Shown: one piece after another, positions 21,684 through 34,302 of the stretch | Position numbering within the stretch: position 1 is the stretch's first letter | How the letters are laid out: each line of letters opens with the position of its first letter | Origin: Nannocystis bainbridge | Lineage (GTDB): Bacteria > Myxococcota_A > Polyangia > Nannocystales > Nannocystaceae | Reading direction: 5' to 3' | Length of the DNA: 64,000 nucleotides | Assembly: GCF_028368995.1 (NCBI RefSeq) | Contig: NZ_JAQNDL010000002.1 | Coordinates: 256,001 to 320,000 of the forward strand | The notes under the pieces: model-generated | Told to the model about the DNA's origin: nothing | What the model saw: only the letters and a program-made list of their open reading frames with translations | The model's database searches: none | Made by a program: the position numbers and the translations under genes

Positions 21684-22493
21684 TCAAGGACAGGCCGCTT
21701 CGTCGGTCTCGTCGACGCAGTCGACGTGGCCGTCGCAGACCCAGTTCGCCGGGACCTCGAGGCCGTCGTCGCACGCGAAGTAGCAGAGGGCCGTGGCCTC
21801 GTCGGACGCGTCATCGCAGTCGGGCGTGCCGTCGCAGCGGTCGAACGCGGGGATCTGCTGGCCGTCTTCGCACACGAACACGCAGGTCGCCTCGGCCTCG
21901 TCGGACATGTCCTTGCAGTCAGGTTGGCCGTCGCACACGTACTGGGCCGAGATCGTGCCGCCGCCGCTGCACGCGAACGCGGGGCCGCCGTTGCACTGGA
22001 TCGTGAGGGCGCCGACGCTGGCCTTGGCGGCCTTGTCACAGGCGGCGACGGCGTCGGCGTACTGGCCGTTGCAGGTGAAGTAGGCGTCCTCCTGGGCGCA
22101 GCCGAGCGGCTCGAGGCAGCCCTGATAGCCGACGGCTGCGTCGGCGAGGCAGGCGACGTAGGGCGCGTGCAGTGGGTCGGCCTCGAGGTCGCAGACGCAC
22201 GAGGTGTTGGCGGTGGCGACGAGGTCGGCGACGCAGCCGCCGACGTCAGGGTAGGCGCCCGCCTCGACCTCGCACGGACAGCGCAGGTCGGCGGCCGCCT
22301 GGGTGGCGATGGCCTGCTTCTCGCACGCGGGGATCGTCACCGGGGTGGTGGTGGCGGCGGTGGTGGTCGCGTCGGACGCGTCGGTGTCGGTGGTGGTCGC
22401 TTCGGTGGCCGAGGCCGTGGCGCCCGTGCTCGCCTGTTCGTTGGGACAGGCGCACAGCAGGAGCGCGCCCGCGAGCCGCGTTCGAGGCTTCAT
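21684..22493 (-). CDS. Lipoprotein with three LDL-receptor class A-like repeats
   Basis: Lipobox LCAC; three F.C..G..I....CDG..DC.D.SDE units. Confidence 0.85.
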   Translation of the reverse strand: MKPRTRLAGALLLCACPNEQASTGATASATEATTTDTDASDATTTAATTTPVTIPACEKQAIATQAAADLRCPCEVEAGAYPDVGGCVADLVATANTSCVCDLEADPLHAPYVACLADAAVGYQGCLEPLGCAQEDAYFTCNGQYADAVAACDKAAKASVGALTIQCNGGPAFACSGGGTISAQYVCDGQPDCKDMSDEAEATCVFVCEDGQQIPAFDRCDGTPDCDDASDEATALCYFACDDGLEVPANWVCDGHVDCVDETDEAACP

Positions 22494-22786
22494 GCCTCGA
22501 AAGTTAGCGCCGGCGCGTGGGGGTCGAGCCGGACCTGACGGCGGACGTGGCGGGCGACACCGGCGCGCTGTGCTGCCGGTCGTGGCGGGCGAAGCGTCGG
22601 CCGCGAGTGGTCGCCGGATCGGTCTCCGCCGGTCGCGCCGGGCGCGAGGGCGCGCTTATGTCCCGAGAGACAGGTTCCGGTGCTGCGCGCGAGGTCAAGC
22701 GCCTGTCCCGATGGACATGTGACGGAGCGCGCGCCGGCGCTGTGAGCGAGGTTGAGCGCCTGTCCCGAGGGACAGGTGAGGTGGGC

Positions 22787-23518
22787 TCAGGGCGTGGCCG
22801 CGGTCGTGCAGGTCAGGGTGCGGTCGCGCAGGTCGACGGTGGAGACCACCGTGGCCTGGCCGCGGACCACGTCGACCACCACGCCGTCGTACTGGTTGGT
22901 GCACTGGGGCTGGCTGCGCTTGCTGATGACGCGGTAGCCGCCGTCGATGGTGCGCACGCTGTCGTCGCCGCACAGCGGCTGGACGCCGAGCAGGGCGGCG
23001 AGCAGGCGGGCCTCGCCGGGGGTGTCGATGGCGCCGAGCAGCGTGAGCAACTGCGACCGGGTGGCGACCGGGCGCACGTTGGCGCCGGACTGCAGCACGA
23101 GGTAGCGGGCCACCTGCGGGTCGGAGCCGGGGAACAGCGAGGTGCTGGCGACGGTGCTGGCGAGCAGGCGGGCGCAGGCGGGCACGTCGGCGACGGTCTG
23201 ACAGGCGAGGCCGACGCTGGCGAGGGTCTGCGACTGCTGGAAGCGGACGCCGGTGTCGGTCTGCTTCAGCACGGTCTCGCGCAGCAGGGCGTGCTCGAAG
23301 CGCACGTTGGTGTGGGTCGGCTCGAGGCCGGCGAGGAGCTGCTCGTGGCTGCAGATCGGGGCGCTGTAGGCGGGGCTGCCGGGCGGGAGCGCGGGATCGT
23401 CCGAGACGGGCGCGGGGTCGCTCGTGGCCGGCGCGCGGGGCGGAGAGCGGTCGCACGCGAACGCGGACCCGGCGGCGACGGCGACGGTGAGGACGGCGCG
23501 GAGACGAACGGCTGGCAC
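22787..23518 (-). CDS. Hypothetical lipoprotein
   Basis: Probable GTG start, AFAC lipobox, coding-like codon usage. Confidence 0.6.
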   Translation of the reverse strand: MPAVRLRAVLTVAVAAGSAFACDRSPPRAPATSDPAPVSDDPALPPGSPAYSAPICSHEQLLAGLEPTHTNVRFEHALLRETVLKQTDTGVRFQQSQTLASVGLACQTVADVPACARLLASTVASTSLFPGSDPQVARYLVLQSGANVRPVATRSQLLTLLGAIDTPGEARLLAALLGVQPLCGDDSVRTIDGGYRVISKRSQPQCTNQYDGVVVDVVRGQATVVSTVDLRDRTLTCTTAATP

Positions 23519-23893
23519 GGGGCCGAGGATACTACGCGGGCCGAACAGTGCGGAAGAAGCGGCCCGATCGGGCTTCACCCGCACGGACCTCCGCCCGCAC
23601 GAGGTCGGGTCGACGCAGCGAAGATGGCCGCGGCACCGCTCAAAACGCCGCTCGGAGGCCGATCGCGCGGTTCGCCTCGCGCGGCCGTCCGCGGCGTCGA
23701 TGGGCTCGCGGACGACCATGCGGAGGTCAGGCCGGGAGGCGTGCCTGGCGAAAAGACCACGTCAGGCCGGCGATCGAGGCGGGGCGCGAGGGCTGGCCCT
23801 TGGGTCAGGGTCGGTCGGCGTTACCGCGCCTGCGGGCAGGTCGAGTTGACGCGCTCGCGTGGGTCGCGCGCGCGGGCTCGTCGCTCGCGGCGC

Positions 23894-25351
23894 TCAGGGG
23901 CGCGGCGGGGCCGGCAAGATCCACGGGCGAGGGCCCAGGCCGTCGACCTCGCGCGCGAGGTCGACGTCGGGGTCGACGAGGCGCGCGGCGGGGCGGCCGT
24001 TGTAGGTGACGAACACGTCGGCGCGGACCTCGGCGCCGGGGTTCTCGGCCGCGATGTGGTGCGCGTACTCGAGGACCATGTCGGGCTGGAAGGCCATCTG
24101 CTTGGCCTGCTGGGCGGTCAGGGTCGGCTCCGGATCGACGAGGCGCTGGCGGCCGCTGACGGGGTCGCGCACGCGGTAGACGACGCTGCCGACCTTCTCG
24201 ACCAGCATGACCTGCCAGGCGAAGCGATAGCCCTCCTCGGTCCAGGCGGTGTCGCCGGGGTAGGCGAAGCGGCGCAGCGGCAGGGTGAGCTGCACGGCGA
24301 AGTGGAGCGCGAGCAGGCCGAGCAGCAGCGGCCGGGCCGGGAACGAGCTGGCGGATAGGACAGGTGCCATGGGGCATGTCCTCGGGGACAGGCGACACCA
24401 CAGCCGCCGCGGCCAGTCGGGCGGGAAGAACACCAGGGCGGCGGCGGCCATGAGCCACGGGAACATGCCGATCGCGGGGAACAGGGCGCCGGTGAGGCCG
24501 TGGAACACGAGCACGCCGGCGTAGGCGAACGGGCGCGTGCGCGGGTGCAGCAGCAGGAACGGGACCGAGAGGTCGAAGGCGGCGCCGCCCCAGCTCATGA
24601 GGTGGGCGGCCTCGGGCCGGCGCAAGAGCCCGCCGATCAGCGGGAAGTCGGCGCGCGCGGCCAGCCACAGCCGCAGCGGCTGGGCGTGCAGCAGCCAGTC
24701 GGGGCGCAGCTTGGCCAGCCCGGCGAAGAAGTAGACCAGCCCGACCTGCAGCCGCAGCGCCCACAACGCCCAGGCCGGGGCGACGGCGACGCGACGGCCG
24801 AGCGGGAGCACGATCATCAGCAGGGCGACGACGCTGACGAAGTAGTAGTGGTTGAGGTAGGTCGCCTTGTCGAGCAGTTCGACGTAGGTGAAGAGGACGA
24901 AGAACAGGGCGATCGCGGGCCGGTAGCACACGCCCGCGGCGACGAGCAGCGACAGCGCGCCGAGGGCGACGAACACGGCGATCATGCCGGCCTCGGGCAG
25001 CGGTGCGAGCCAGCCGAAGCCCCAGTAGTGGAAGTGGAAGGTCGGGTCGACGTACAGCTGGTGGATCCACCCGCGCGCGGCGAAGCGGACCGTGCCGGCG
25101 AACATCAGCAGGCCAAAGGCGATCCGGAACGCGTGGAGGCCGGCGGCGTCGACCGGGGCGAGCAGGGCGCGCAGGAGGCGGCTGAGGGCGCCATGGCCAT
25201 CATCTGCCCGAATCGACATGTCTATTGGGACACGTTCTACCGGCGCGTCCTGCTCGTCATCTGTCCGAAGCGACATGTCGCAGGGGACATGTTCATCGTG
25301 CGGCCGGCCGACCGCGGGCGGGCTGCGGTCCGGGGGGGCGCGGTCGGGCAT
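23894..25351 (-). CDS. HTTM domain / vitamin K-dependent gamma-carboxylase-like membrane protein
   Basis: FRIAFGLLM, FHFHYWGF, LDKATYLNHYY, VYFFAGLAKLRPDWL, IGMFP, WTEEGYRFAWQVMLVEK. Confidence 0.88.
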   Translation of the reverse strand: MPDRAPPDRSPPAVGRPHDEHVPCDMSLRTDDEQDAPVERVPIDMSIRADDGHGALSRLLRALLAPVDAAGLHAFRIAFGLLMFAGTVRFAARGWIHQLYVDPTFHFHYWGFGWLAPLPEAGMIAVFVALGALSLLVAAGVCYRPAIALFFVLFTYVELLDKATYLNHYYFVSVVALLMIVLPLGRRVAVAPAWALWALRLQVGLVYFFAGLAKLRPDWLLHAQPLRLWLAARADFPLIGGLLRRPEAAHLMSWGGAAFDLSVPFLLLHPRTRPFAYAGVLVFHGLTGALFPAIGMFPWLMAAAALVFFPPDWPRRLWCRLSPRTCPMAPVLSASSFPARPLLLGLLALHFAVQLTLPLRRFAYPGDTAWTEEGYRFAWQVMLVEKVGSVVYRVRDPVSGRQRLVDPEPTLTAQQAKQMAFQPDMVLEYAHHIAAENPGAEVRADVFVTYNGRPAARLVDPDVDLAREVDGLGPRPWILPAPPRP

Positions 25352-25361
25352 TTCGCTCGGG

Positions 25362-26474
25362 TCAGTCGCCGTCGTTGTCGCTGAGGGCGAGGGTGACGCC
25401 GAGGGTGCTGGCGACGTCGAGCTTGAGCAGGCGACGGAACGTGTCGAGCTCGTCGCGGGCCAGCTGGACGGCGGTGCGGTCGGCGACGAGCGCCTCCGTC
25501 AGGGGCTCGGGGACGGCGACGAGGACCTCGACGGTGCGGGCGTACTGGGCCCGCACGCGCTCGTCGAGGGCCGGATCGAGGGCGGCGACGAGGACCGAGA
25601 TGCCGGCCGCGGGCGCGTCCAGATCGGCGCCGTGGTAGACGGCCCACACGCCGGCGAGGTTGGCCTGCAGGTCGGCGCGGGTGCGGCCGGAGAAGCGCGA
25701 CTCCATCAGGCTCGGGTCCTCGGCGGCGCCGGAGAGGTTGCCGAGCGGGTTGTCGAGCTTGCCCTTGACCATGGTGAGGCAGGCGTCGATCGACTTGTTG
25801 ATGACCTCGTCGACGCCGGCCTTGAGCGAGGGGTAGGCGGCGCTGCCGGTGCCGGCGGTGGCGAGGGCATCGGCGTACTCGCTGGCCCAGGCGGTGGCGA
25901 GGGCGTCGGTGCGGGCCTCGATGTCGACGGCGAGGGCCCGGGCGTAGCCGCAGCGGCGCGCGCCGTCCTCGCTCTGGAAGGCGGTCAGGGCGGCGCCCGG
26001 GTCCTCGCCCCACAGCAGGTACTCGAGCGCGGGCATGCCCTTGGCGCTGACGCCGAGGCCGCCGAGGTAGCCGGCGTCGGCGGCCGCGGGGGCGCCGGCG
26101 ACCGCGGTCTCGACGGTGTCGACGCGCACGGGCCAGAAGTCGAGGGCGTTGAGCTCGGGCGGCAGCGGGCCGAAGCCGAACGGGAGCACGCGCGACCAGG
26201 CGTCGCGCTCCTCCGACCAGGCGGCCTGGGCGGCCGCGAGGGTGGTGGCGTCGGGGCCGGCGCACAGCGGCTCAAGGGCGGCGACCAGCGCCCCGGCCCG
26301 CTCGTGCAGGGTCGCGAAGGCGGGGGCCGCGACGTCGTGGCCGATGTGGGCCAGCACGGCCGGGCGAGCGTCGTCGCCGCTGCCGCCGCCGCAGGCGAGG
26401 CCGGCGAGCATGCCGGCACCTGCTCCGAAGAGCATGGCCGAGAGGACAGGGCGAGAGAGACCGGCGCGGATCAT
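25362..26474 (-). CDS. Imelysin (peptidase M75-like) family lipoprotein
   Basis: LAC lipobox; AAQAAW..FGP..LDFWP, KGMPALEYLLW, C-terminal DNDGD. Confidence 0.88.
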   Translation of the reverse strand: MIRAGLSRPVLSAMLFGAGAGMLAGLACGGGSGDDARPAVLAHIGHDVAAPAFATLHERAGALVAALEPLCAGPDATTLAAAQAAWSEERDAWSRVLPFGFGPLPPELNALDFWPVRVDTVETAVAGAPAAADAGYLGGLGVSAKGMPALEYLLWGEDPGAALTAFQSEDGARRCGYARALAVDIEARTDALATAWASEYADALATAGTGSAAYPSLKAGVDEVINKSIDACLTMVKGKLDNPLGNLSGAAEDPSLMESRFSGRTRADLQANLAGVWAVYHGADLDAPAAGISVLVAALDPALDERVRAQYARTVEVLVAVPEPLTEALVADRTAVQLARDELDTFRRLLKLDVASTLGVTLALSDNDGD

Positions 26475-26599
26475 CGGGACCTCGAGGGACGGGGGAGCGT
26501 GCCGGCACCTGCCCCGAAGAGCATGGCCGAGAGGACAGGGCGAGAGCGGCCAGACGGCGAGCGCGCCGGCGGGGCGCCGACGACAGCGCGGGTGCTTTG

Positions 26600-26665
26600 A
26601 GGCATGTCCTCGCGGACATGTCCTTTCGCGCCGGGCCTCGGGGACATGTGCGAAGGGGCAGGCGG
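26600..26665. repeat. 14-bp phased TGTCC-N4-GGACA array (5 cores)
   Basis: Cores at 26603, 26617, 26631, 26645, 26659, inside the operon spacer. Confidence 0.75.
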
Positions 26666-26679
26666 GGCGCCCGCGGCGG

Positions 26680-28056
26680 TCACAGCGACTCCAGGAAGGC
26701 GATCAGGTCGGCGCGCTCGTCGGCGGAGAAGCTCCGCACGGCCTCGCGCGCGGGCTCGGCCTCGCCGCCGTGCCACAGCACCGCCTCCATCAGCGAGCGG
26801 GCGCGGCCGTCGTGGAGGAAGCTGGTGTGGCGGTTGACCGTCTCGACCAGGCCGATGCCCCACAGCGGCGGGGTCCGCCACTCGTTGCCGTCGGCCAGGT
26901 AGTCGCGGCGGCCGTCGCCGAGCCCGTCGCCCATGTCGTGCAGCAGGAGGTCGGTGTACGGCCAGATCGTCTGGCCCCGGACCTCGTCGATGGCGGCGTC
27001 GGCGGCGGTGATGTGGCGCGGGACGTGGCAGTCGACGCAGCCGGCCGCCGCGAACAGCCCCTTGCCGCGCAGGACCTCGGGCGCGTCGGCGCCGCGGCGA
27101 GCGGGGACGGCGAGGGTCGCGGTGTAGAAGACGACGTCTTCGAGCAGGTCGGCCGTGACCTCGGGCTGGCCGCCGTGCGGGGCCGCGGCGCACTCGGGCT
27201 GGCCTTCGGGACAGTTCTCGAGCGGGAACATCTCGGTCGTCAGGCCCATGTCGCCGAGGAAGGCGCCGGCCGTCTGCTGGGCGATGGTCGACTGGTTGGC
27301 CTTCCAGCCGAACCGGCCGAGCACGGCGGCGTCGGCGGCCAGGTCCCACACGTAGTTGGCGCGGCCGGAGATGCCGTCGCCGTCGGCGTCGCGTGGGTCC
27401 TCGCGGGCGACGATGTCGGCCTCGGGGATGGCCTCGAGCAGGCCCATGCCGATCATCACCGGGGCGACGCGCGGCGAGATGAAAAGGTCGGCCGGCAGCG
27501 GGCCGTAGGCCGGGTCCTCGAGGGTGTAGGTCGGGACGCGCAGGCTGTACGCCTCGCCGTCGGCGAAGGCGCCCGGGCGCTCGACCCACGTGACCTTCGG
27601 GACAGCTTCGGGCGCGACCCCGTCGATGGCGTTCGGCTGCAGCTGGTCGCCGTAGCCGGGCACATCGCGCGGGCCGCCGTGCAGGCCCTCGCCGGGGATC
27701 GAGAGGCGCAGCAGCATGCTGGTGAACGGCTCGTCGGCCTCGGGCGGGCGGCCGCGGCCGTCCTTGAAGTGGCAGGCCGAGCACGAGCGGGCGTTGAAGG
27801 TCGGGCCGAGGCCGTCGCGCCCGGTGGTCGAGGCCGGGGCGATGACCCAGTTCTTGTTGAAGAACGAGTTGCCGACCACGAACCGCTGGCGCCGCTCGAA
27901 GGTCATGTTGCGGGCGCTGTACGAGAACGCGTTGGGGCTCTCGTCGCGGATGGTGGTGTCGCCGCCGGCCAGCTCCTCGCCCGGCTCGAGCGCCGGGGCG
28001 AGGTCTTCACAGGATGCCCCGAAGAACAGGGCCAAAAAGACAGGCAGGCGGCGCAC
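26680..28056 (-). CDS. Di-haem oxidoreductase family (DHOR/DUF1111-type) lipoprotein
   Basis: DGLGPTFNARSCSACH, GCVDCH, PYTDLLLHDMG, WRTPPLWGIG, FLHDGRAR; probable GTG start. Confidence 0.9.
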   Translation of the reverse strand: MRRLPVFLALFFGASCEDLAPALEPGEELAGGDTTIRDESPNAFSYSARNMTFERRQRFVVGNSFFNKNWVIAPASTTGRDGLGPTFNARSCSACHFKDGRGRPPEADEPFTSMLLRLSIPGEGLHGGPRDVPGYGDQLQPNAIDGVAPEAVPKVTWVERPGAFADGEAYSLRVPTYTLEDPAYGPLPADLFISPRVAPVMIGMGLLEAIPEADIVAREDPRDADGDGISGRANYVWDLAADAAVLGRFGWKANQSTIAQQTAGAFLGDMGLTTEMFPLENCPEGQPECAAAPHGGQPEVTADLLEDVVFYTATLAVPARRGADAPEVLRGKGLFAAAGCVDCHVPRHITAADAAIDEVRGQTIWPYTDLLLHDMGDGLGDGRRDYLADGNEWRTPPLWGIGLVETVNRHTSFLHDGRARSLMEAVLWHGGEAEPAREAVRSFSADERADLIAFLESL

Positions 28057-28064
28057 GACCCAGT

Positions 28065-29228
28065 CTACTCCAAGTTGAGCTCGATCTCGAGCACACCCGC
28101 GACCTGGACCAGCGCCTCGGTCGCCTCCTTGAGGCTGTCGATCGCGGCCTTGACCGCGGCGCGCTCCGGGCTGCCGTCGGCGGCCTGGATGGCGTTGTCG
28201 AACGGGGCCGGGATGGCCTTGACGGCGGCGACCGCGGCCTGGAGCTTGGCGGTGGCGTTGGCGTCGACGTCGGCGTCGAGGCGGGCGACCAGGCTCGAGA
28301 GACCGGCGCCCGCCTGCCCGTCGATGCGGCCGTGGTACACGTCGTCGATGCCCTGGATGTTGGCCAGGATGTCCTTGTGGGTGTTGTCGCTGAAGCAGGA
28401 GTGCTCGTCCTCCTGCTCGCGGGTGTCGTAGGCGACGGTCATGCGCTCGCCGGCGAGCTCGGCGCCGCTGAGGCTGGCCATGCCGAGCAGGACCTTGCCG
28501 ATCGCTTCCTTGGGGTCCTGGGCGACGAACTCGGCGCGGTAGTTGGCCTGTCCTTCGGACCAGGCGTCGGCGACGCGCGCCAGATCGTCGAGCAGCAGCT
28601 CGCTCGTCAAGGTGAGGTAGTCGCGGCGGCGCTCCTGGTTGGCGGCGGTGCCCTCGGGCGCGTCGACGAAGTCGGTCCACGGGCGCGCGCCCGGGCCGTC
28701 GGCGCTCAGGTCCTGGCCCCACAGCAGGAACTCGATCGCGTGCCAGCCGGTCGAGATGCTGTCCTCGCCCTCGGCGCCGTTGCGCTCGATCAGCACGTCG
28801 CGGGTGATGTCGGGGTAGCCGGCGAGGTCGTTGATGATGCCGGCGTCGGCCTGGCCCTCGACGTAGTCGATGTACGCCTCGTCCATCGGCCAGGCGTTGA
28901 TGCGGCCCTCGAGCTCGTCCGGGGCGGCGTCGATCGGGCCGTTGTAGAAGCGGAACACCTCGGTGAGGCCGTACTGGTCGCGGGCGCCGAGCCAGGCGGT
29001 CTTGGTGGCCGCGAGCGTCTCGGCCGAGGGATCGCCGACGAACGCCTGCAGGGCGCTGTCCATCTGCTCGGCGCCGCGGCTCGACTTCTCGTAGGCGGCG
29101 GAGACCAGCTCGGCGTAGCGATCGACCACGTTCTGCGCTTCCTCGCGGAAGGACGCGTCGTCCCAGCCGGTGTCGGCGGTGGTGGTGCAGGCGGGGAGGA
29201 GACAGAGGGCGAGGAGCGAGCGGCGCAT
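28065..29228 (-). CDS. Iron-regulated imelysin-family lipoprotein (IrpA-like)
   Basis: LPAC lipobox; TEVFRF, INAWPMDEAYIDYV, TGWHAIEFLLWGQD, ELAGERM, EDEHSCFSDNT. Confidence 0.9.
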   Translation of the reverse strand: MRRSLLALCLLPACTTTADTGWDDASFREEAQNVVDRYAELVSAAYEKSSRGAEQMDSALQAFVGDPSAETLAATKTAWLGARDQYGLTEVFRFYNGPIDAAPDELEGRINAWPMDEAYIDYVEGQADAGIINDLAGYPDITRDVLIERNGAEGEDSISTGWHAIEFLLWGQDLSADGPGARPWTDFVDAPEGTAANQERRRDYLTLTSELLLDDLARVADAWSEGQANYRAEFVAQDPKEAIGKVLLGMASLSGAELAGERMTVAYDTREQEDEHSCFSDNTHKDILANIQGIDDVYHGRIDGQAGAGLSSLVARLDADVDANATAKLQAAVAAVKAIPAPFDNAIQAADGSPERAAVKAAIDSLKEATEALVQVAGVLEIELNLE

Positions 29229-29291
29229 GCGGGGGCTTCCAGTCCGTGAGGCGCGCCAGCGCGAGGGGCGATGGCGATCGAAATTTGGGAT

Positions 29292-29310
29292 ACTGAAAGT
29301 GGTTTTCAAT
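29292..29310. promoter_or_regulatory. Putative Fur box
   Basis: ACTGAAAGTGGTTTTCAAT, a 7-1-7-type inverted repeat about 65 bp upstream of the imelysin operon. Confidence 0.7.
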
Positions 29311-29366
29311 GTCAACGCCCCGGGAGTGCCTGGACGCACGCCAGGGCCGCGGCTATGGTGCCGGCC

Positions 29367-30092
29367 ATGGCGGCGACCGCCGATACTTCACAGAACCGTA
29401 ACTATTACGACGCTTTCTCTGCCGGCTACGACGACGGCCGCGATCGCGGATACCACAAGCTCATCGACGACCAGGCGGCGGCGATCGTCAGCCGCTACGC
29501 CGCCGGGAAGGACGCGCTGGAGGTCGGCTGCGGCACGGGGCTCATCCTCCAGCGGGTGGCGTCGGTCGCCCGCTCGGCCAAGGGCGTCGACCTGTCGCCG
29601 GGCATGCTGGAGCACGCGCGCAGCCGCGGGCTCGACGTCCAGGAGGGCAGCGCGACCGACCTGCCGTTCGCCGACGCCAGCTTCGACGTGACCTACTCCT
29701 TCAAGGTGTTGGCGCACATCCCCGGCTGGGAGCGCTGCCTGCAGGAGATGGCGCGCGTGACCCGGCCCGGCGGGCACATGGTGTTCGACATCTACAACCG
29801 CAACTCGCTGCGGTACCTGATCAAGCGGCTGTGGGGCCCGCGCAAGACGTCGCACAGCTTCGACGAGGCGGCGATCTCGACCCGCTTCCTCAGCCCGGCC
29901 GAGGCCGCGGACGTGCTGCCCGCGGGCACCCGCGTGGTCGGCCGCGCCGGCATCCGCATCACGACGCCGCACCCGGTGGTCTGCCGCCTGCCCGTGATCG
30001 GCAGGGTCCACGACCGCGTCGAGTGGGCGCTGATGGAGAGCCCGCTGGCCGCGCTGGCCGGGTTCTACGTGTTTGTGGCGGAGAAGTTGTGA
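29367..30092 (+). CDS. Class I SAM-dependent methyltransferase
   Basis: LEVGCGTG, GVDLSPGML, LPFADASFD, RVTRPGG. Confidence 0.9.
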   Translation: MAATADTSQNRNYYDAFSAGYDDGRDRGYHKLIDDQAAAIVSRYAAGKDALEVGCGTGLILQRVASVARSAKGVDLSPGMLEHARSRGLDVQEGSATDLPFADASFDVTYSFKVLAHIPGWERCLQEMARVTRPGGHMVFDIYNRNSLRYLIKRLWGPRKTSHSFDEAAISTRFLSPAEAADVLPAGTRVVGRAGIRITTPHPVVCRLPVIGRVHDRVEWALMESPLAALAGFYVFVAEKL

Positions 30093-32993: not shown

Positions 32994-33389
32994 ATGCCGC
33001 GACGCAAGCCCGACCTCGATCCGCTGAGTCGGCGTGAGCGACAGATCATGGACATCGTCTACCGGCGCGGGCAGGCGACCATCCGCGACGTGCTCGACGC
33101 GCTGCCCGACCCGCCGACGTATTCGGCAGTGCGCGCGCTGGTGAAGGTGCTCGAGGACAAGGGCCACCTGCGGCACACGCAGGACGGGCCGACGTACGTG
33201 TACGCGCCGACGCGCGCGCGCGCGCGGGTGGCCACGTCGGCGCTGGCGCACGTGGTCGACACGTTCTTCGGCGGGTCGGCGAGCGACGCGGTGGCGGCGT
33301 TGCTCGACCTCGACGGGCGCGAGCTGTCGCGGGCGGAGCTCGACGAGCTGGGGGCGATGATCGAGCAGGCGCGCAAGGAGGGCCGCTGA
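32994..33389 (+). CDS. BlaI/MecI/CopY family transcriptional repressor
   Basis: LSRRERQIMDIVY, PTYSAVRALVKVLEDKG, VVDTFFGGS. Confidence 0.92.
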   Translation: MPRRKPDLDPLSRRERQIMDIVYRRGQATIRDVLDALPDPPTYSAVRALVKVLEDKGHLRHTQDGPTYVYAPTRARARVATSALAHVVDTFFGGSASDAVAALLDLDGRELSRAELDELGAMIEQARKEGR

Positions 33390-33390
33390 G

Positions 33391-34302
33391 ATGATCGCGG
33401 CGGCGGCGGCTTGGCTGGGGGCGCTGCAGCTGGTGGGGGCGCTGGTGTTCGCCTCGGCTGGCCTTTTGGACATGTGCGCCCGCGGGCGCAGCGCGGCGGT
33501 GCGCCGGCAGATCTGGGCCCTGGCGATCGCGGTGGCGCTGGTGCTGCCGCTGCCGCGGCTGGCCTTGCCGACGTCGGAGCTGCGGTTGCCCGAGGTCGCG
33601 GCGACGGCGTGGCTGGTGGCGTGGGCGATCGGGGCGGGGCTGTTGCTGGCGCGGCTGGTGCGGGGTCAGAGGCTGGCGCGCAGGCGAGCGCGGCGGGCCA
33701 GGCCGATCGCCGACGGGCCGTGGCAGGCGACGGCGCGGGAGGTCGGCGGTCCGCGGGCCGAGCTGCGCGCGTGCGAGTCGGCGCGCACGCCGATGGTGGT
33801 CGGGCTGGTGCGACCGATCGTGCTGGTGCCGGTGGTGATGCTGGGCGCGCCGGCGGCCGAGCGACGGGCGCTGCTGGCCCACGAGCTGGCCCACGTGGCC
33901 CGCGCCGACGCCATGGTGGCGCTGGCGGGCGGGCTGGCGCGGGCGGTGTACTGGCCGAATCCGCTGGCCTGGTGGGCGCTGCGGCGGCTGCGAGCCCACG
34001 CCGAGGACGCGGCCGACGACGCCGCGCTGCACACGGGGATCGCGTGCTCGAGCTACGCGGCGCAGCTGGTGGCGGTGGCGCGGGCGCAGCTCGAGCGGGC
34101 CGGGCGGGTCGCCGCCGGCGGGCTGCGGGCGCGCGTGCGCGGGGTGCTCGACGCCAGGCGGATCCGCAGCGGCGCGCCCCGTCCGCTGCGCTGGGGCGTG
34201 CCGCGGTTCATCGCGGCGGCGCTGGTGCTGGCGACGATGGTGACGGCCTGCGAGGCGCGCTCGGCCGAGGATGACGGGGCGCGGCCGGGCGTGCGGCCCT
34301 GA
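33391..34302 (+). CDS. BlaR1/MecR1-type M56 metallopeptidase
   Basis: TPMVVGLVRP.VLVP, HELAHVARAD, YWPNPLAW, EDAADD; directly follows blaI. Confidence 0.88.
   Translation: MIAAAAAWLGALQLVGALVFASAGLLDMCARGRSAAVRRQIWALAIAVALVLPLPRLALPTSELRLPEVAATAWLVAWAIGAGLLLARLVRGQRLARRRARRARPIADGPWQATAREVGGPRAELRACESARTPMVVGLVRPIVLVPVVMLGAPAAERRALLAHELAHVARADAMVALAGGLARAVYWPNPLAWWALRRLRAHAEDAADDAALHTGIACSSYAAQLVAVARAQLERAGRVAAGGLRARVRGVLDARRIRSGAPRPLRWGVPRFIAAALVLATMVTACEARSAEDDGARPGVRP

What the first reader, a model, noticed from the sequence alone, without database searches (positions are those of the whole stretch)
23894..29310. Probable Fur-regulated iron-uptake operon ending in a vitamin-K-dependent carboxylase homologue
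Seen: co-oriented imelysin, di-haem oxidoreductase, imelysin and HTTM genes (8-bp and 10-bp gaps at two junctions) behind a Fur-like box. The HTTM protein has YFFAGLAKLRPDW, resembling the lysine-containing catalytic segment of animal gamma-glutamyl carboxylase. Established: imelysin/DHOR pairs are linked to iron acquisition; I know of no defined substrate for bacterial HTTM proteins. Inference: menaquinone-dependent Glu carboxylation of the acidic imelysin lipoproteins could create metal-chelating Gla sites, or HTTM couples quinol to Fe reduction.
Basis: partly seen in the sequence, partly recalled or inferred. Interest (0 to 1): 0.7.

Follow-up and report, generated by a model that had tools for sequence, protein, structure and literature searches.

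The report
Iron-regulated operon with vitamin-K carboxylase homologue
A soil myxobacterium keeps a close structural relative of the human vitamin-K-dependent carboxylase inside an iron-controlled gene cluster, always next to the same kind of lipoprotein, which gives this enzyme family a first testable job in ordinary bacteria.

Summary
On the minus strand of this Nannocystis-like window lie four co-oriented genes: an imelysin with GxHxxE, a di-haem DHOR, a GxxxxE (IPPA-type) imelysin, and an HTTM/VKGC homologue. A Fur-type palindrome sits in the spacer of a promoter-like site.

The box ranks 15th in the 11-Mb genome under a matrix trained on sites beside iron genes. It recurs at the head of the cluster in every Myxococcota or Bradymonadia relative examined.

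The new point is the linkage. In 78 of the 80 best HTTM loci from many phyla an IPPA-type imelysin gene touches the HTTM gene, and the other 2 are cut by contig ends. There are two architectures: imelysin-DHOR-imelysin-HTTM, and DUF4856-imelysin-HTTM-TonB receptor. The second carries Bacteroidota Fur-type boxes in 37 of 40 loci.

In all 81 linked enzymes the equivalents of human K218, D263, W223, N159, H160 and the vitamin-K pocket phenylalanines are invariant. The propeptide-binding half is absent.

Best reading: an iron-controlled envelope module in which a menaquinol/O2-dependent carboxylase-type enzyme acts on, or with, its imelysin partner. Carboxylation itself is untested. The partner's best-conserved acidic residues are Asp in a flexible C-terminal DxDGD tail, not Glu.

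The parts
29292..29310 (.). Fur-family operator-like palindrome ATTGAAAACCACTTTCAGT (core TGAAA-N5-TTTCA)
   Evidence: Sequence. Scores 25.98 and ranks 15th genome-wide with a matrix built from 8 sites next to a TonB receptor, bacterioferritin, Peripla_BP_2 and ECF sigma genes, with our site excluded. The same matrix hits the head of the cluster in 11 of 11 Myxococcota/Bradymonadia loci with upstream DNA.
29287..29315 (-). Promoter-like TTGACA, 17 nt, TATCCC, with the palindrome filling the spacer
   Evidence: Read. The -10 hexamer is weak (3 of 6). The consensus scan reports no canonical sigma-70 site, so the promoter is inferred.
28065..29228 (-). Imelysin-1: acidic lipoprotein of the ICMP/IrpA type with GxHxxE (GWHAIE, aa 161-166)
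   Evidence: Pfam Peptidase_M75 E 6.5e-71. Lipobox LLPAC. pI 4.22. NCBIfam LruB model scores 145.7 bits, far below its 850-bit cut-off.
26680..28056 (-). DHOR: di-haem oxidoreductase / putative peroxidase lipoprotein
   Evidence: Pfam DHOR E 1.5e-98. GTG start 8 bp after the imelysin-1 stop. CSACH and CVDCH at aa 92 and 340.
26475..26679 (-). 205-nt spacer with REP-like GGACATGTCC units and an 89-nt tandem duplication of the imelysin-2 5' end. The upstream copy forms a 44-codon ORF whose TGA overlaps the imelysin-2 ATG.
   Evidence: D3: 26403-26462 and 26492-26551, 92% identical.
25362..26474 (-). Imelysin-2: IPPA/PA4372-type lipoprotein (GxxxxE = GMPALE, no His). This is the conserved partner gene of HTTM.
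   Evidence: Pfam E 1.5e-46. A profile of 32 such proteins hits Psychrobacter IPPA 3pf0 end to end. Adjacent to HTTM in 78 of 80 loci. AF2 model pLDDT 91.5.
25365..25379 (-). C-terminal tail DNDGD-COOH of imelysin-2
   Evidence: D368 is Asp in 32 of 32 rows and D370 in 31 of 32 rows of alignment A2; these are its best-conserved acidic columns. pLDDT is below 50 for residues 366-370. The tail is also present in IPPA 3pf0.
23894..25351 (-). HTTM/VKGC homologue: 485 aa from ATG 25351, or 441 aa from ATG 25219
   Evidence: Pfam HTTM E 4.5e-69 plus VKGC_lumenal_dom E 4.7e-42. Human GGCX E 1.5e-31. AF2 pLDDT 94.6. Foldseek TM 0.85 to GGCX, and the only 16 significant hits are all GGCX.
25220..25351 (-). 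REP-rich 5' stretch of the HTTM ORF (two repeat units, 'DMS' codons); coding status unresolved
   Evidence: (D5).
24695..24733 (-). YFFAGLAKLRPDW segment. The Lys codon is at 24710-24712 and aligns with human K218.
   Evidence: Lys is invariant in 81 of 81 imelysin-linked homologues.

Best explanation
This is a four-gene envelope module repressed by a Fur-family regulator and used in iron acquisition. It encodes three acidic lipoproteins (a GxHxxE imelysin, a di-haem DHOR and a GxxxxE IPPA-type imelysin) and one inner-membrane enzyme of the vitamin-K-dependent carboxylase type.

The enzyme keeps the complete machinery that human GGCX uses: to deprotonate and oxygenate the quinol (here menaquinol), to hold a substrate carboxylate, and to stack CO2. 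It lacks the propeptide-binding half of GGCX.

I propose that the neighbouring IPPA-type imelysin is its client or substrate-presenting partner. At the periplasmic face of the inner membrane, before or while the lipoprotein is sorted, the enzyme would use menaquinol, O2 and CO2/bicarbonate to carboxylate an acidic residue of that partner. That residue could be a Glu or, as in MloH, an Asp; the flexible, invariant C-terminal DxDGD tail is the best candidate. The result would be a malonate-like metal-chelating group that serves iron capture together with DHOR (in Myxococcota and Chloroflexota) or a TonB-dependent receptor (in Bacteroidota).

Shown here: gene content, the operator, the conserved adjacency, and the conserved active-site residues.
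Inferred: co-transcription, iron control in this organism, the quinol used, physical contact, and the carboxylation itself.

My odds for the sub-claims: iron/Fur-controlled module 0.85; functional HTTM-imelysin link 0.9; catalytically competent quinol oxygenase 0.75; carboxylation of the imelysin 0.3.
For: Domains and motifs.

Operator:
- The site ranks 15th genome-wide with a matrix trained on 8 sites beside iron-type genes.
- The same matrix hits the head of the cluster in 11 of 11 Myxococcota/Bradymonadia loci that have upstream DNA, and in L102.
- The box published for R. anatipestifer, with up to 5 mismatches, lies upstream of the DUF4856 gene in 37 of 40 low-GC loci. Density is 2.46 per kb there against 0.063 per kb elsewhere in those loci.
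- The homologous R. anatipestifer genes (TonB receptor, 'vitamin K-dependent gamma-carboxylase', imelysin, hypothetical) are listed as raised under iron restriction: 2.11-3.07 in wild type (PMC5609570 Table 4, passages read).

Linkage:
- 78 of the 80 best HTTM loci have an imelysin gene touching HTTM; the other 2 are cut at a contig end.
- In 150 other Myxococcota genomes, 28 of 47 HTTM matches have an imelysin-2-like match directly upstream. Among the 34 strongest matches, 27 are adjacent, 1 is at a contig edge and 6 are not.
- This genome has 10 HTTM-matching loci but only 2 imelysin genes, and both are here.

Active site:
- Equivalents of human K218, D263, D222, W223, N159, H160, G259, F286, F294, F299 and W399 are invariant in 81 of 81 sequences; Y395 is Y in 59, F in 18 and M in 4.
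- The roles of these residues come from section 8 of bioRxiv 10.1101/2025.02.09.637231 and section 13 of PMC12647623.
- Fold: pLDDT 94.6, TM 0.85 to GGCX.

Cofactor: two MqnA/MqnD-type menaquinone genes score above the Pfam cut-off.

Partner: all 32 aligned partners have a lipoprotein signal, none has His in the motif, and the DxDGD tail is conserved and modelled as disordered.
Against: - No expression, protein or chemistry data exist for this organism. No RNA run was found.
- The complex prediction could not be run.
- Two of the three junctions in this window may be long: 205 bp, and possibly 142 bp. Both are filled with dispersed repeats, so co-transcription is less secure here than in relatives, where spacing between the HTTM and imelysin matches is -14 to 68 bp in 25 of 28 pairs.
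- The partner has no Gla-domain-like Glu cluster. Only three columns are mostly Glu, at 20-24 of 32 rows.
- The DxDGD tail is also present in Psychrobacter IPPA. That family sits in gammaproteobacterial operons for which Xu 2011 names no HTTM gene, so the tail has a role that does not need HTTM.
- Several GGCX residues differ throughout the family: K217 to A, N158 to L, L394 to G, M401 to V, N290 to T.
- The propeptide-binding region (human 495-758) is missing.
- In R. anatipestifer the genes stayed iron-responsive in the fur mutant (2.77), and the fur effect with iron was small (1.39).
- From recall only, not seen here: the Leptospira orthologue showed epoxidase but no carboxylase activity in vitro.
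Confidence: 0.35

Rival explanations
1. The enzyme carboxylates or otherwise modifies something other than the imelysin: another cluster protein (imelysin-1, DHOR, DUF4856), a peptide, or a small metal-binding molecule. The IPPA-type imelysin would act as the substrate-binding adaptor that replaces the missing propeptide-binding half of GGCX.
For: - The human propeptide-binding region is absent.
- A 2026 preprint (passages read) predicts that another bacterial HTTM protein is completed by a separately encoded partner (DUF5819) that mimics part of the GGCX lumenal domain.
- MloH acts on a small-molecule intermediate (cited).
- Imelysins have a conserved 'functional site' of unknown ligand (Xu 2011, PMC3143127, passages).
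- Conserved adjacency fits an adaptor as well as it fits a substrate.
Against: - No gene for making a small-molecule substrate is conserved next to the pair. Beyond imelysin and HTTM the neighbours differ between the two architectures.
- DHOR and imelysin-1 are missing from 54 of the 78 linked loci, so neither can be the universal substrate.
Confidence: 0.25
2. No carboxylation takes place. The HTTM protein is a menaquinol-oxidising membrane partner that feeds electrons to, or drains them from, iron held by the imelysin (or DHOR). It would act as a quinol:Fe(III) reductase or electron sink, comparable in role to the membrane redox subunits of other Fe2+/Fe3+ uptake systems.
For: - It is the only integral membrane protein of the module.
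- The quinol-binding and deprotonating residues are invariant.
- DHOR is a haem redox protein.
- Xu 2011 links imelysins to peroxidase-type redox partners.
- From recall only: the Leptospira orthologue oxidised vitamin K without carboxylating.
Against: - Residues that in GGCX only serve the carboxylate substrate and CO2 (N159, H160, F299) are also invariant in 81 of 81 sequences.
- The fold has no metal or haem site for electron transfer.
- In 54 of the 78 linked loci there is no DHOR.
Confidence: 0.2
3. The module is not primarily for iron. The palindrome would be bound by another Fur-family member (PerR- or Zur-like), and the cluster would deal with peroxide or another metal.
For: - The genome has at least two distinct Fur-family genes.
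- DHOR is annotated as a putative peroxidase.
- One training site lies beside a ribosomal protein S4 paralogue.
- In R. anatipestifer the response persisted in the fur mutant.
Against: - The same palindrome type fronts a TonB receptor, bacterioferritin, a Peripla_BP_2 protein and an ECF sigma gene. One copy is a perfect TGATAATCATTATCA.
- The Bacteroidota form of the cluster ends in a TonB-dependent receptor and is induced by iron restriction.
- Imelysin operons are Fur-regulated in P. aeruginosa and V. cholerae according to Xu 2011.
Confidence: 0.1
4. HTTM is merely a neighbour in this window. It would be transcribed on its own from the repeat-filled spacer and have no functional tie to the imelysin genes.
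For: The spacer may be 142 bp long and carries REP-like palindromes. Three other VKGC-like paralogues in the genome sit in unrelated contexts.
Against: Adjacency holds in 78 of 80 loci across Myxococcota, Chloroflexota, Bacteroidota, Rhodothermota-like, Gemmatimonadota, Deinococcota and Verrucomicrobia records. No terminator-like site lies between the genes.
Confidence: 0.03

Closest known systems
Fur-regulated imelysin operon of Pseudomonas aeruginosa (PA4370-PA4373) and Vibrio cholerae (VC1264-VC1266), as described by Xu et al. 2011 (PMC3143127, passages read)
   Same: The same order: GxHxxE imelysin lipoprotein, di-haem DUF1111/DHOR protein, GxxxxE (IPPA/PA4372-type) imelysin. Also Fur control, no Ftr1/EfeU permease in the operon, and the C-terminal DGD tail in the IPPA family.
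   Different: The fourth gene here is a VKGC homologue. Xu 2011 does not contain 'vitamin K' or 'gamma-carboxylase' (0 occurrences). That PA4373 is a DUF1513 protein is my recollection and was not checked. DUF1513 gave no match in this genome, but the control search also found nothing, so that result is uninformative.
[quoted passage not shown]
   Same: HTTM plus lumenal domain. Sequence E 1.5e-31; model TM 0.85. Catalytic K218, D263, W223, N159, H160 and F286/F294/F299 are conserved.
   Different: About 440 aa against 758. The region after about residue 492, including the propeptide-binding 495-513, is absent. K217, N158, L394, M401 and N290 are replaced throughout the family. The bacterial quinol would be menaquinol, and the client is unknown.
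MloH, the VKGC orthologue of malonomycin biosynthesis (Law et al. 2018; known to me only through citations)
   Same: A bacterial VKGC-type enzyme with a defined carboxylation, on an aspartyl rather than a glutamyl carbon. This is the precedent for considering the Asp-rich tail.
   Different: MloH sits in a polyketide/non-ribosomal peptide cluster and acts on a small-molecule intermediate. No such genes lie here.
Riemerella anatipestifer RAYM_09779-09794 (TonB receptor, 'vitamin K-dependent gamma-carboxylase', imelysin, hypothetical), from PMC5609570 Table 4
   Same: Same gene set as the DUF4856-imelysin-HTTM-TonB receptor architecture that I found in 9 of the 10 non-DHOR loci I annotated. It provides experimental iron responsiveness.
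   Different: It lacks DHOR and the first imelysin. The paper lists the genes without commenting on the carboxylase. I did not compare its sequences.
EfeUOB / EfeM ferrous-iron uptake
   Same: A periplasmic M75 (imelysin-like) protein works with a haem peroxidase (Xu 2011).
   Different: EfeB is a DyP-type enzyme and EfeU an Ftr1 permease. Neither is present here; the only membrane protein is the VKGC homologue.

Membership tests
HTTM / vitamin-K-dependent carboxylase (VKGC) family | HTTM transmembrane domain (PF05090) over the curated cut-off | tested here: met
   233.3 bits against a 27.7-bit cut-off.
HTTM / vitamin-K-dependent carboxylase (VKGC) family | VKGC lumenal domain following the HTTM domain | tested here: met
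   PF22777, 143.9 bits, residues 341-481. Only 4 loci in this genome have it.
HTTM / vitamin-K-dependent carboxylase (VKGC) family | Catalytic base Lys218 with its Asp263 and Trp223 environment | tested here: met
   K214, D260 and W219 of the 485-aa ORF align to them. All three are invariant in 81 of 81 sequences.
HTTM / vitamin-K-dependent carboxylase (VKGC) family | Substrate-carboxylate pocket (N159, H160, Y395) and CO2-stacking F299 | tested here: met
   N167, H168, Y375 and F297 in this protein. N, H and F are invariant in 81 of 81; Y395 is Y in 59, F in 18 and M in 4.
HTTM / vitamin-K-dependent carboxylase (VKGC) family | Propeptide-binding exosite (human 495-513 and the C-terminal lumenal half) | tested here: not met
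   The alignment to GGCX ends at human residue 492, and the protein ends 16 residues later. The target-normalised TM of only 0.58 reflects the missing half.
HTTM / vitamin-K-dependent carboxylase (VKGC) family | Quinol-, O2- and CO2-dependent carboxylation of a Glu or Asp | not testable with these tools
   Needs enzyme assays and mass spectrometry.
Imelysin-like superfamily (Peptidase_M75) | M75 domain over the cut-off, with a lipoprotein or secretion signal | tested here: met
   239.7 and 159.7 bits. Lipoboxes LLPAC and GLAC.
ICMP/IrpA-type imelysin | GxHxxE motif | tested here: met
   Met by imelysin-1 (GWHAIE, aa 161). Imelysin-2 has GMPALE, which places it in the GxxxxE IPPA family of Xu 2011.
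DHOR / DUF1111 di-haem oxidoreductase | PF06537 match and two CxxCH haem c sites | tested here: met
   330.9 bits. CSACH and CVDCH.
Fur regulon | Fur-type operator overlapping the promoter | tested here: met
   Palindrome in the 17-nt spacer, rank 15 genome-wide, conserved in relatives. Which Fur-family protein binds it is not known.
Fur regulon | Iron- and Fur-dependent transcription | not testable with these tools
   No RNA run holds this DNA. There is only indirect support from R. anatipestifer.
PA4370-PA4373-type imelysin operon | Gene order imelysin, DHOR, IPPA-type imelysin | tested here: met
PA4370-PA4373-type imelysin operon | Fourth gene of the Pseudomonas type (DUF1513, recalled) | tested here: not met
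   The fourth gene is the HTTM/VKGC homologue.

The most novel reading that the evidence does not exclude
The IPPA-type imelysin lipoprotein is the first natural protein substrate of a bacterial vitamin-K-dependent carboxylase. A menaquinol/O2/bicarbonate-driven enzyme would install gamma-carboxy-Glu, or beta-carboxy-Asp in the invariant flexible DxDGD-COOH tail, to build an iron-chelating site. Vitamin-K-dependent protein carboxylation would then have arisen as a bacterial metal-acquisition device, widespread in aerobic menaquinone-using phyla, long before animal blood clotting.
Probability: 0.25. Interest if true: 0.9.

Novelty: new variant of a known kind. Interest (0 to 1): 0.68.

Why it matters
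What bacterial homologues of the vitamin-K-dependent carboxylase do has been open since they were first seen. The one defined case I could find cited, MloH, is a secondary-metabolite enzyme.

Here a large subfamily is tied gene-to-gene to one lipoprotein family and to iron regulation in at least two distant phyla, each with its own Fur-box dialect. The family is large: the whole-library search found 1,614 clusters (at 50% identity) at E up to 1e-30.

That turns the question into a concrete experiment in tractable, harmless bacteria such as Flavobacterium johnsoniae and Myxococcus or Nannocystis. It also bears on how imelysin proteins, whose biochemical role is still unknown, bind their ligand, and on the origin of Gla chemistry.

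I found no paper that holds both 'imelysin' and 'HTTM' (0 papers). Of the 3 papers holding 'imelysin' and 'carboxylase', I checked two: one lists the two genes side by side in a table without comment, and one is unrelated. The third (eLife 2017, Vibrio fischeri) I did not open. Three further searches found nothing on the link. The library lacks most subscription journals, and I read no supplements.

Tried and rejected
1. Complex prediction of HTTM with imelysin-2 (alignments A1 and A2). The queue was full every time and all 8 free tries were used, so the job never ran. There is therefore no result on binding.
2. RNA evidence for co-transcription: no RNA holder was listed. I did not use read laying, because contigs cannot show transcripts.
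4. DUF4856 as a hidden imelysin: hhalign aligned only the signal peptide, probability 7%. Rejected.
5. The DxDGD tail as an HTTM-specific mark: rejected, because Psychrobacter IPPA 3pf0 ends in the same tail.
6. DUF1513 in this genome: no match, but the control genomes gave none either, so this is uninformative.
7. Classical MenA (TIGR00751): only sub-threshold matches. The futalosine-type genes were found instead.
8. Canonical sigma-70 promoter and terminator scan of 22500-29600: 0 promoters, and 1 terminator-like site inside the DHOR gene, which is at chance level.
9. Whether imelysin-linked HTTMs form a clade apart from the three unlinked paralogues of this genome. The paralogues are monophyletic (SH-aLRT 100). 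Their placement is unstable (18, 88.5, 63), and the tree is only midpoint-rooted, so this is unresolved.
10. The true HTTM start.
 - For the long form: the first ATG and about 12 following codons are conserved, and the frame stays open, in 3 of 3 Nannocystis sequences.
 - Against it: GC3 in the extension is 0.75-0.88 against 0.96 in the core, and the extension is made of REP units.
 - Unresolved.
11. The downstream 310-aa gene and the divergent methyltransferase as module members: rejected, since they are conserved only in the two Nannocystis loci.

Full report
**Where and what.** The window is G000:C3:256001-320000 of an 11.05-Mb, 5-contig genome with about 72% G+C. The closest named homologues of the HTTM protein come from Nannocystis: N. 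radixulma at 88% identity and N. exedens at 92% over the matched segment. The organism is therefore a Nannocystis-like myxobacterium.

The finding lies on the minus strand. Reading the ORFs, the junction sequences and Pfam gives four genes:
- Imelysin-1, 28065-29228: Peptidase_M75 E 6.5e-71, signal ending LLPAC, motif GWHAIE.
- DHOR, 26680-28056: PF06537 E 1.5e-98, GTG start, signal ending GASC, haem sites CSACH and CVDCH.
- Imelysin-2, 25362-26474: Peptidase_M75 E 1.5e-46, signal ending GLAC, motif GMPALE.
- An HTTM ORF, 23894-25351: HTTM E 4.5e-69 plus VKGC_lumenal_dom E 4.7e-42.

The three lipoproteins are acidic, with pI 4.2-4.65. NCBIfam has no model that names the DHOR, imelysin-2 or HTTM proteins.

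**Junctions.** Between DHOR and imelysin-2 there are 205 bp. This spacer holds REP-like units and an 89-nt tandem duplication of the imelysin-2 5' end (26403-26462 and 26492-26551, 92% identical). The upstream copy forms a small ORF whose TGA overlaps the imelysin-2 ATG.

The 10-bp gap exists between the imelysin-2 stop and the first ATG of the HTTM ORF. The next 44 codons, however, are two units of a dispersed repeat. The octamer GACATGTC occurs 2,237 times in the genome against about 74 expected. The same 'DMS'-rich extensions, of different lengths, precede the conserved core in other Nannocystis proteins.

For the long form: the first ATG and about 12 following codons are conserved, and the frame stays open, in 3 of 3 Nannocystis sequences. 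Against it: third-position G+C in the extension is 0.75-0.88 against 0.96 in the core, and homologues elsewhere start about where ATG 25219 lies. I leave the start open; the gap is 10 or 142 bp. No terminator-like site separates the genes; the one site found lies inside the DHOR gene and is at chance level.

**The operator.** Upstream of imelysin-1 the minus strand reads TTGACA, then TTGAAAACCACTTTCAG, then TATCCC (29315-29287). A TGAAA-N5-TTTCA palindrome thus fills the 17-nt spacer of a promoter-like pair. The -10 hexamer is weak, and the consensus scan reports no canonical promoter.

I listed all TGA-N9-TCA words of the genome. The AT-rich ones form a family resembling TGAAAAT-N-ATTTTCA, often in pairs. 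Pfam on the flanking ORFs of 20 of them showed:
- a TonB-dependent receptor, whose region also holds a perfect TGATAATCATTATCA;
- bacterioferritin, whose box differs from ours by one base;
- a Peripla_BP_2 binding protein;
- an ECF sigma factor;
- and, besides these, DUF3570, a cytochrome c, methyltransferases and several proteins without a family.

A matrix built from the 8 sites next to the four iron-type genes, with ours left out, scores our site 25.98. That ranks it 15th among all 19-mers of the genome. The genome has Fur-family genes. Which family member binds the box is not known.

**Footprinting in relatives.** The same matrix was run over the high-G+C loci among the 80 related loci. 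It hits at or just before the 5' end of the first cluster gene in all 11 Myxococcota/Bradymonadia loci that have upstream DNA (L033, L034, L038, L039, L045, L046, L065, L081, L099, L100, L104), and in L102. It gave no hit at the cluster head in 12 of the 13 Chloroflexota-type loci; L042 has one weak hit of 19.8. Real start codons were not determined in those loci, so positions are relative to stop-to-stop ORFs.

For the low-G+C loci I used the 19-nt box that the Riemerella anatipestifer Fur paper proposes (PMC5609570; I read passages, including Tables 4 and 5 in part). With up to 5 mismatches it occurs in the 700-nt window upstream of the DUF4856 gene in 37 of 40 loci, often twice about 60-70 nt apart. 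Density there is 2.46 per kb against 0.063 per kb in the rest of those loci. Part of that contrast must come from intergenic A+T richness.

[quoted passage not shown] The ratios for iron-poor over iron-rich medium are 2.11-3.07 in wild type and 2.70-3.07 in the fur mutant. The ratios for the fur mutant over wild type with iron are 1.36-1.93. So the genes are iron-responsive, with only a modest Fur effect in that data set.

**The linkage.** A whole-library search found 4,456 clusters (at 50% identity) related to the HTTM protein at E up to 0.001, and 1,614 at E up to 1e-30. With an alignment of 35 of them (A1), the search for related loci confirmed 592 relatives in one-genome-per-species contigs and returned the best 80. 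The scan pattern was the catalytic segment itself, so the sample leans towards this subfamily.

Iterated HMM searches of all ORFs of those loci found an imelysin gene touching the HTTM gene in 78 of 80. The two exceptions, L035 and L107, have HTTM at the very start of the contig.
- 24 loci carry DHOR as well. These are Nannocystis, Polyangia, Bradymonadia, Dehalococcoidia and other Chloroflexota, a Trueperaceae record and a Gemmatimonadaceae record. In 5 Chloroflexota loci the imelysin-DHOR-imelysin unit is convergent with HTTM.
- 54 loci have imelysin without DHOR.

I annotated 39 neighbours from 13 of the 80 loci. Nine of the 10 non-DHOR loci read DUF4856, imelysin, HTTM, then a TonB-dependent receptor or Plug protein. 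The tenth (L081) has a divergent TonB receptor.

The imelysin next to HTTM is never the GxHxxE type. My motif pattern found no His in 32 of the 33 loci it matched; the single 'His' call (L040) was a mis-picked ORF. None of the 32 aligned partners has His there.

A less biased sample comes from 150 other Myxococcota genomes. There were 47 HTTM matches at E up to 1e-20, and 28 have an imelysin-2-like match directly upstream, in 24 genomes. Among the 34 strongest, 27 are adjacent, 1 is at a contig edge and 6 are not.

In this genome there are 10 HTTM-matching loci and 4 full HTTM-plus-lumenal proteins, but only 2 imelysin genes, both here. The other three full paralogues are 41-44% identical to ours and sit beside unrelated genes. 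They form their own clade, but its position relative to the linked enzymes is unresolved.

**The enzyme.** phmmer aligns residues 57-469 of the ORF with human GGCX 49-492 at E 1.5e-31. An AlphaFold2 model from A1 has mean pLDDT 94.6 and pTM 0.92. Foldseek finds only GGCX entries at E up to 0.001 (16 hits), the best with TM 0.85 normalised to the query.

I took residue roles from two structure papers: section 8 of bioRxiv 10.1101/2025.02.09.637231 and section 13 of PMC12647623. I mapped them through the alignment onto 81 linked sequences.
- Invariant in 81 of 81:
 - K218, the general base;
 - D263 and W223, which position it;
 - N159 and H160, which hold the substrate carboxylate;
 - F299, which stacks CO2;
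 - F286 and F294, in the naphthoquinone pocket;
 - G259, in the isoprenyl tunnel;
 - also D222 and W399.
- Y395 is Y in 59, F in 18 and M in 4.
- Replaced throughout the family: K217 to A, N158 to L, W157 to Y, L394 to G (80 of 81), M401 to V (80 of 81) and N290 to T.

The human region beyond residue 492, which contains the propeptide-binding 495-513, has no counterpart. PMC12647623 itself notes that catalytic residues are conserved in bacterial orthologues and cites MloH as an aspartyl carboxylase. I did not read Law et al. 2018.

The genome carries two MqnA/MqnD-type menaquinone-synthesis genes, so menaquinol is a plausible cofactor. It is my recollection, not tested here, that the phyla carrying the cluster are mostly aerobic menaquinone users.

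**The partner.** A profile of 32 HTTM-adjacent imelysins (A2) matches the Psychrobacter IPPA structure 3pf0 from residue 50 to its last residue (E 3.8e-32). This places the partner in the GxxxxE family of Xu et al. 2011 (PMC3143127, passages read).

Its best-conserved acidic positions are D368 (32 of 32), D370 (31 of 32) and D366 (27 D plus 2 E) in a terminal DxDGD-COOH. The mostly-Glu columns reach only 20-24 of 32. The AlphaFold2 model has mean pLDDT 91.5 but below 50 for residues 366-370. The tail is thus conserved yet flexible, as expected of a docking or modification site. But IPPA 3pf0 ends in the same tail, so the tail is not specific to HTTM-bearing clusters.

**Reading.** Three things are shown:
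- a conserved two-gene core (IPPA-type imelysin plus VKGC homologue);
- its embedding in two iron-type architectures, each behind a Fur-type box of the local dialect;
- an active site conserved down to the residues that in GGCX serve only the carboxylate substrate and CO2.

The rest is inferred. The most economical mechanism is that the enzyme is a working menaquinol/O2-dependent carboxylase. Its client, or client-presenting subunit, would be the imelysin, and it would act at the periplasmic face of the inner membrane much as GGCX acts on secretory proteins in the ER. The product would be a malonate-like chelating group used for iron capture.

I give the full chain 0.35. The rivals are:
- another substrate, with the imelysin as adaptor (0.25);
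- quinol-driven iron redox without carboxylation (0.2);
- a peroxide or other-metal role (0.1);
- no functional link (0.03).

**Comparison and novelty.** The first three genes reproduce the Fur-regulated PA4370-PA4372 / VC1264-VC1266 layout described by Xu 2011; the fourth gene is different.

I found no paper holding both 'imelysin' and 'HTTM'. 'Imelysin' with 'carboxylase' gave 3 papers. One is the Riemerella table, one is unrelated, and one I did not open. Three more searches gave nothing on the link.

The library omits most subscription journals and I opened no supplements, so prior mention elsewhere, or in neighbourhood databases, cannot be excluded. The window's copy is one ordinary member of a widespread cluster. 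What is new is the recognition of the cluster as a system.

**Limits.**
- No expression data were found.
- The complex prediction never ran; the queue was full.
- The best-80 sample is biased by the scan pattern.
- Related genomes are not independent.
- Gene starts in the loci are approximate.

Noticed in passing
window 289, 883, 922, 936, 14993, 17952, 20408, 21053, 21067, 21904, 25215, 25272, 26615, 30719, 37020, 37062, 39744, 40726, 41553, 46294, 49990, 59453 (starts of [GA]ACATGTC): A dispersed REP-like repeat built on the palindrome GGACATGTCC, often in tandem at a 14-nt period. GACATGTC occurs 2,237 times in the genome against about 74 expected. When translated it gives recurrent 'DMS' peptides in many spurious and some real ORFs.
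   Followed up: partly
window 26403-26551: An 89-nt tandem duplication (60 nt compared, 92% identical) of the imelysin-2 signal-peptide region. It creates a 44-codon upstream ORF whose TGA overlaps the imelysin-2 ATG.
   Followed up: partly
window 21684-22493 (-): A 269-aa protein with two LDL-receptor class A repeats (E 6.9e-21), an animal-type calcium-binding module. It lies two genes downstream of the animal-type carboxylase homologue. This is probably coincidence and was not examined.
   Followed up: no
G000:C1:773460-774845, C2:2576778-2578112, C1:2637804-2639120 (loci L113-L115): Three further full-length VKGC-like paralogues (HTTM plus lumenal domain, 41-44% identical to ours). Their contexts have no imelysin: next to a PLP decarboxylase and AcrB-type pump, a Metal_hydrol protein, or proteins without a family. 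All keep the N-H and K equivalents.
   Followed up: partly
G000:C1:43951/44051, C2:249130, C1:2501888, C1:3414505: High-scoring Fur-type boxes in front of lipoproteins with no Pfam family, an RCC1-repeat lipoprotein, a 724-aa lipoprotein and a DUF3570 protein. These are candidate new members of the iron regulon.
   Followed up: no
window 32994-34302 (+): A BlaI-type repressor (Penicillinase_R) followed by a BlaR1-type M56 sensor-protease gene.
   Followed up: no
G000:C1:4523313-4523675, C1:4524963-4525325, C2:3022155-3022517: Three Fur-family matches with identical scores (112.1 bits), all close to contig ends. They are probably a repeated or mis-assembled region.
   Followed up: no
L055:3697-6839: A Rhodothermaceae locus with two tandem DUF4856 genes ahead of the imelysin-HTTM-receptor unit.
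   Followed up: no
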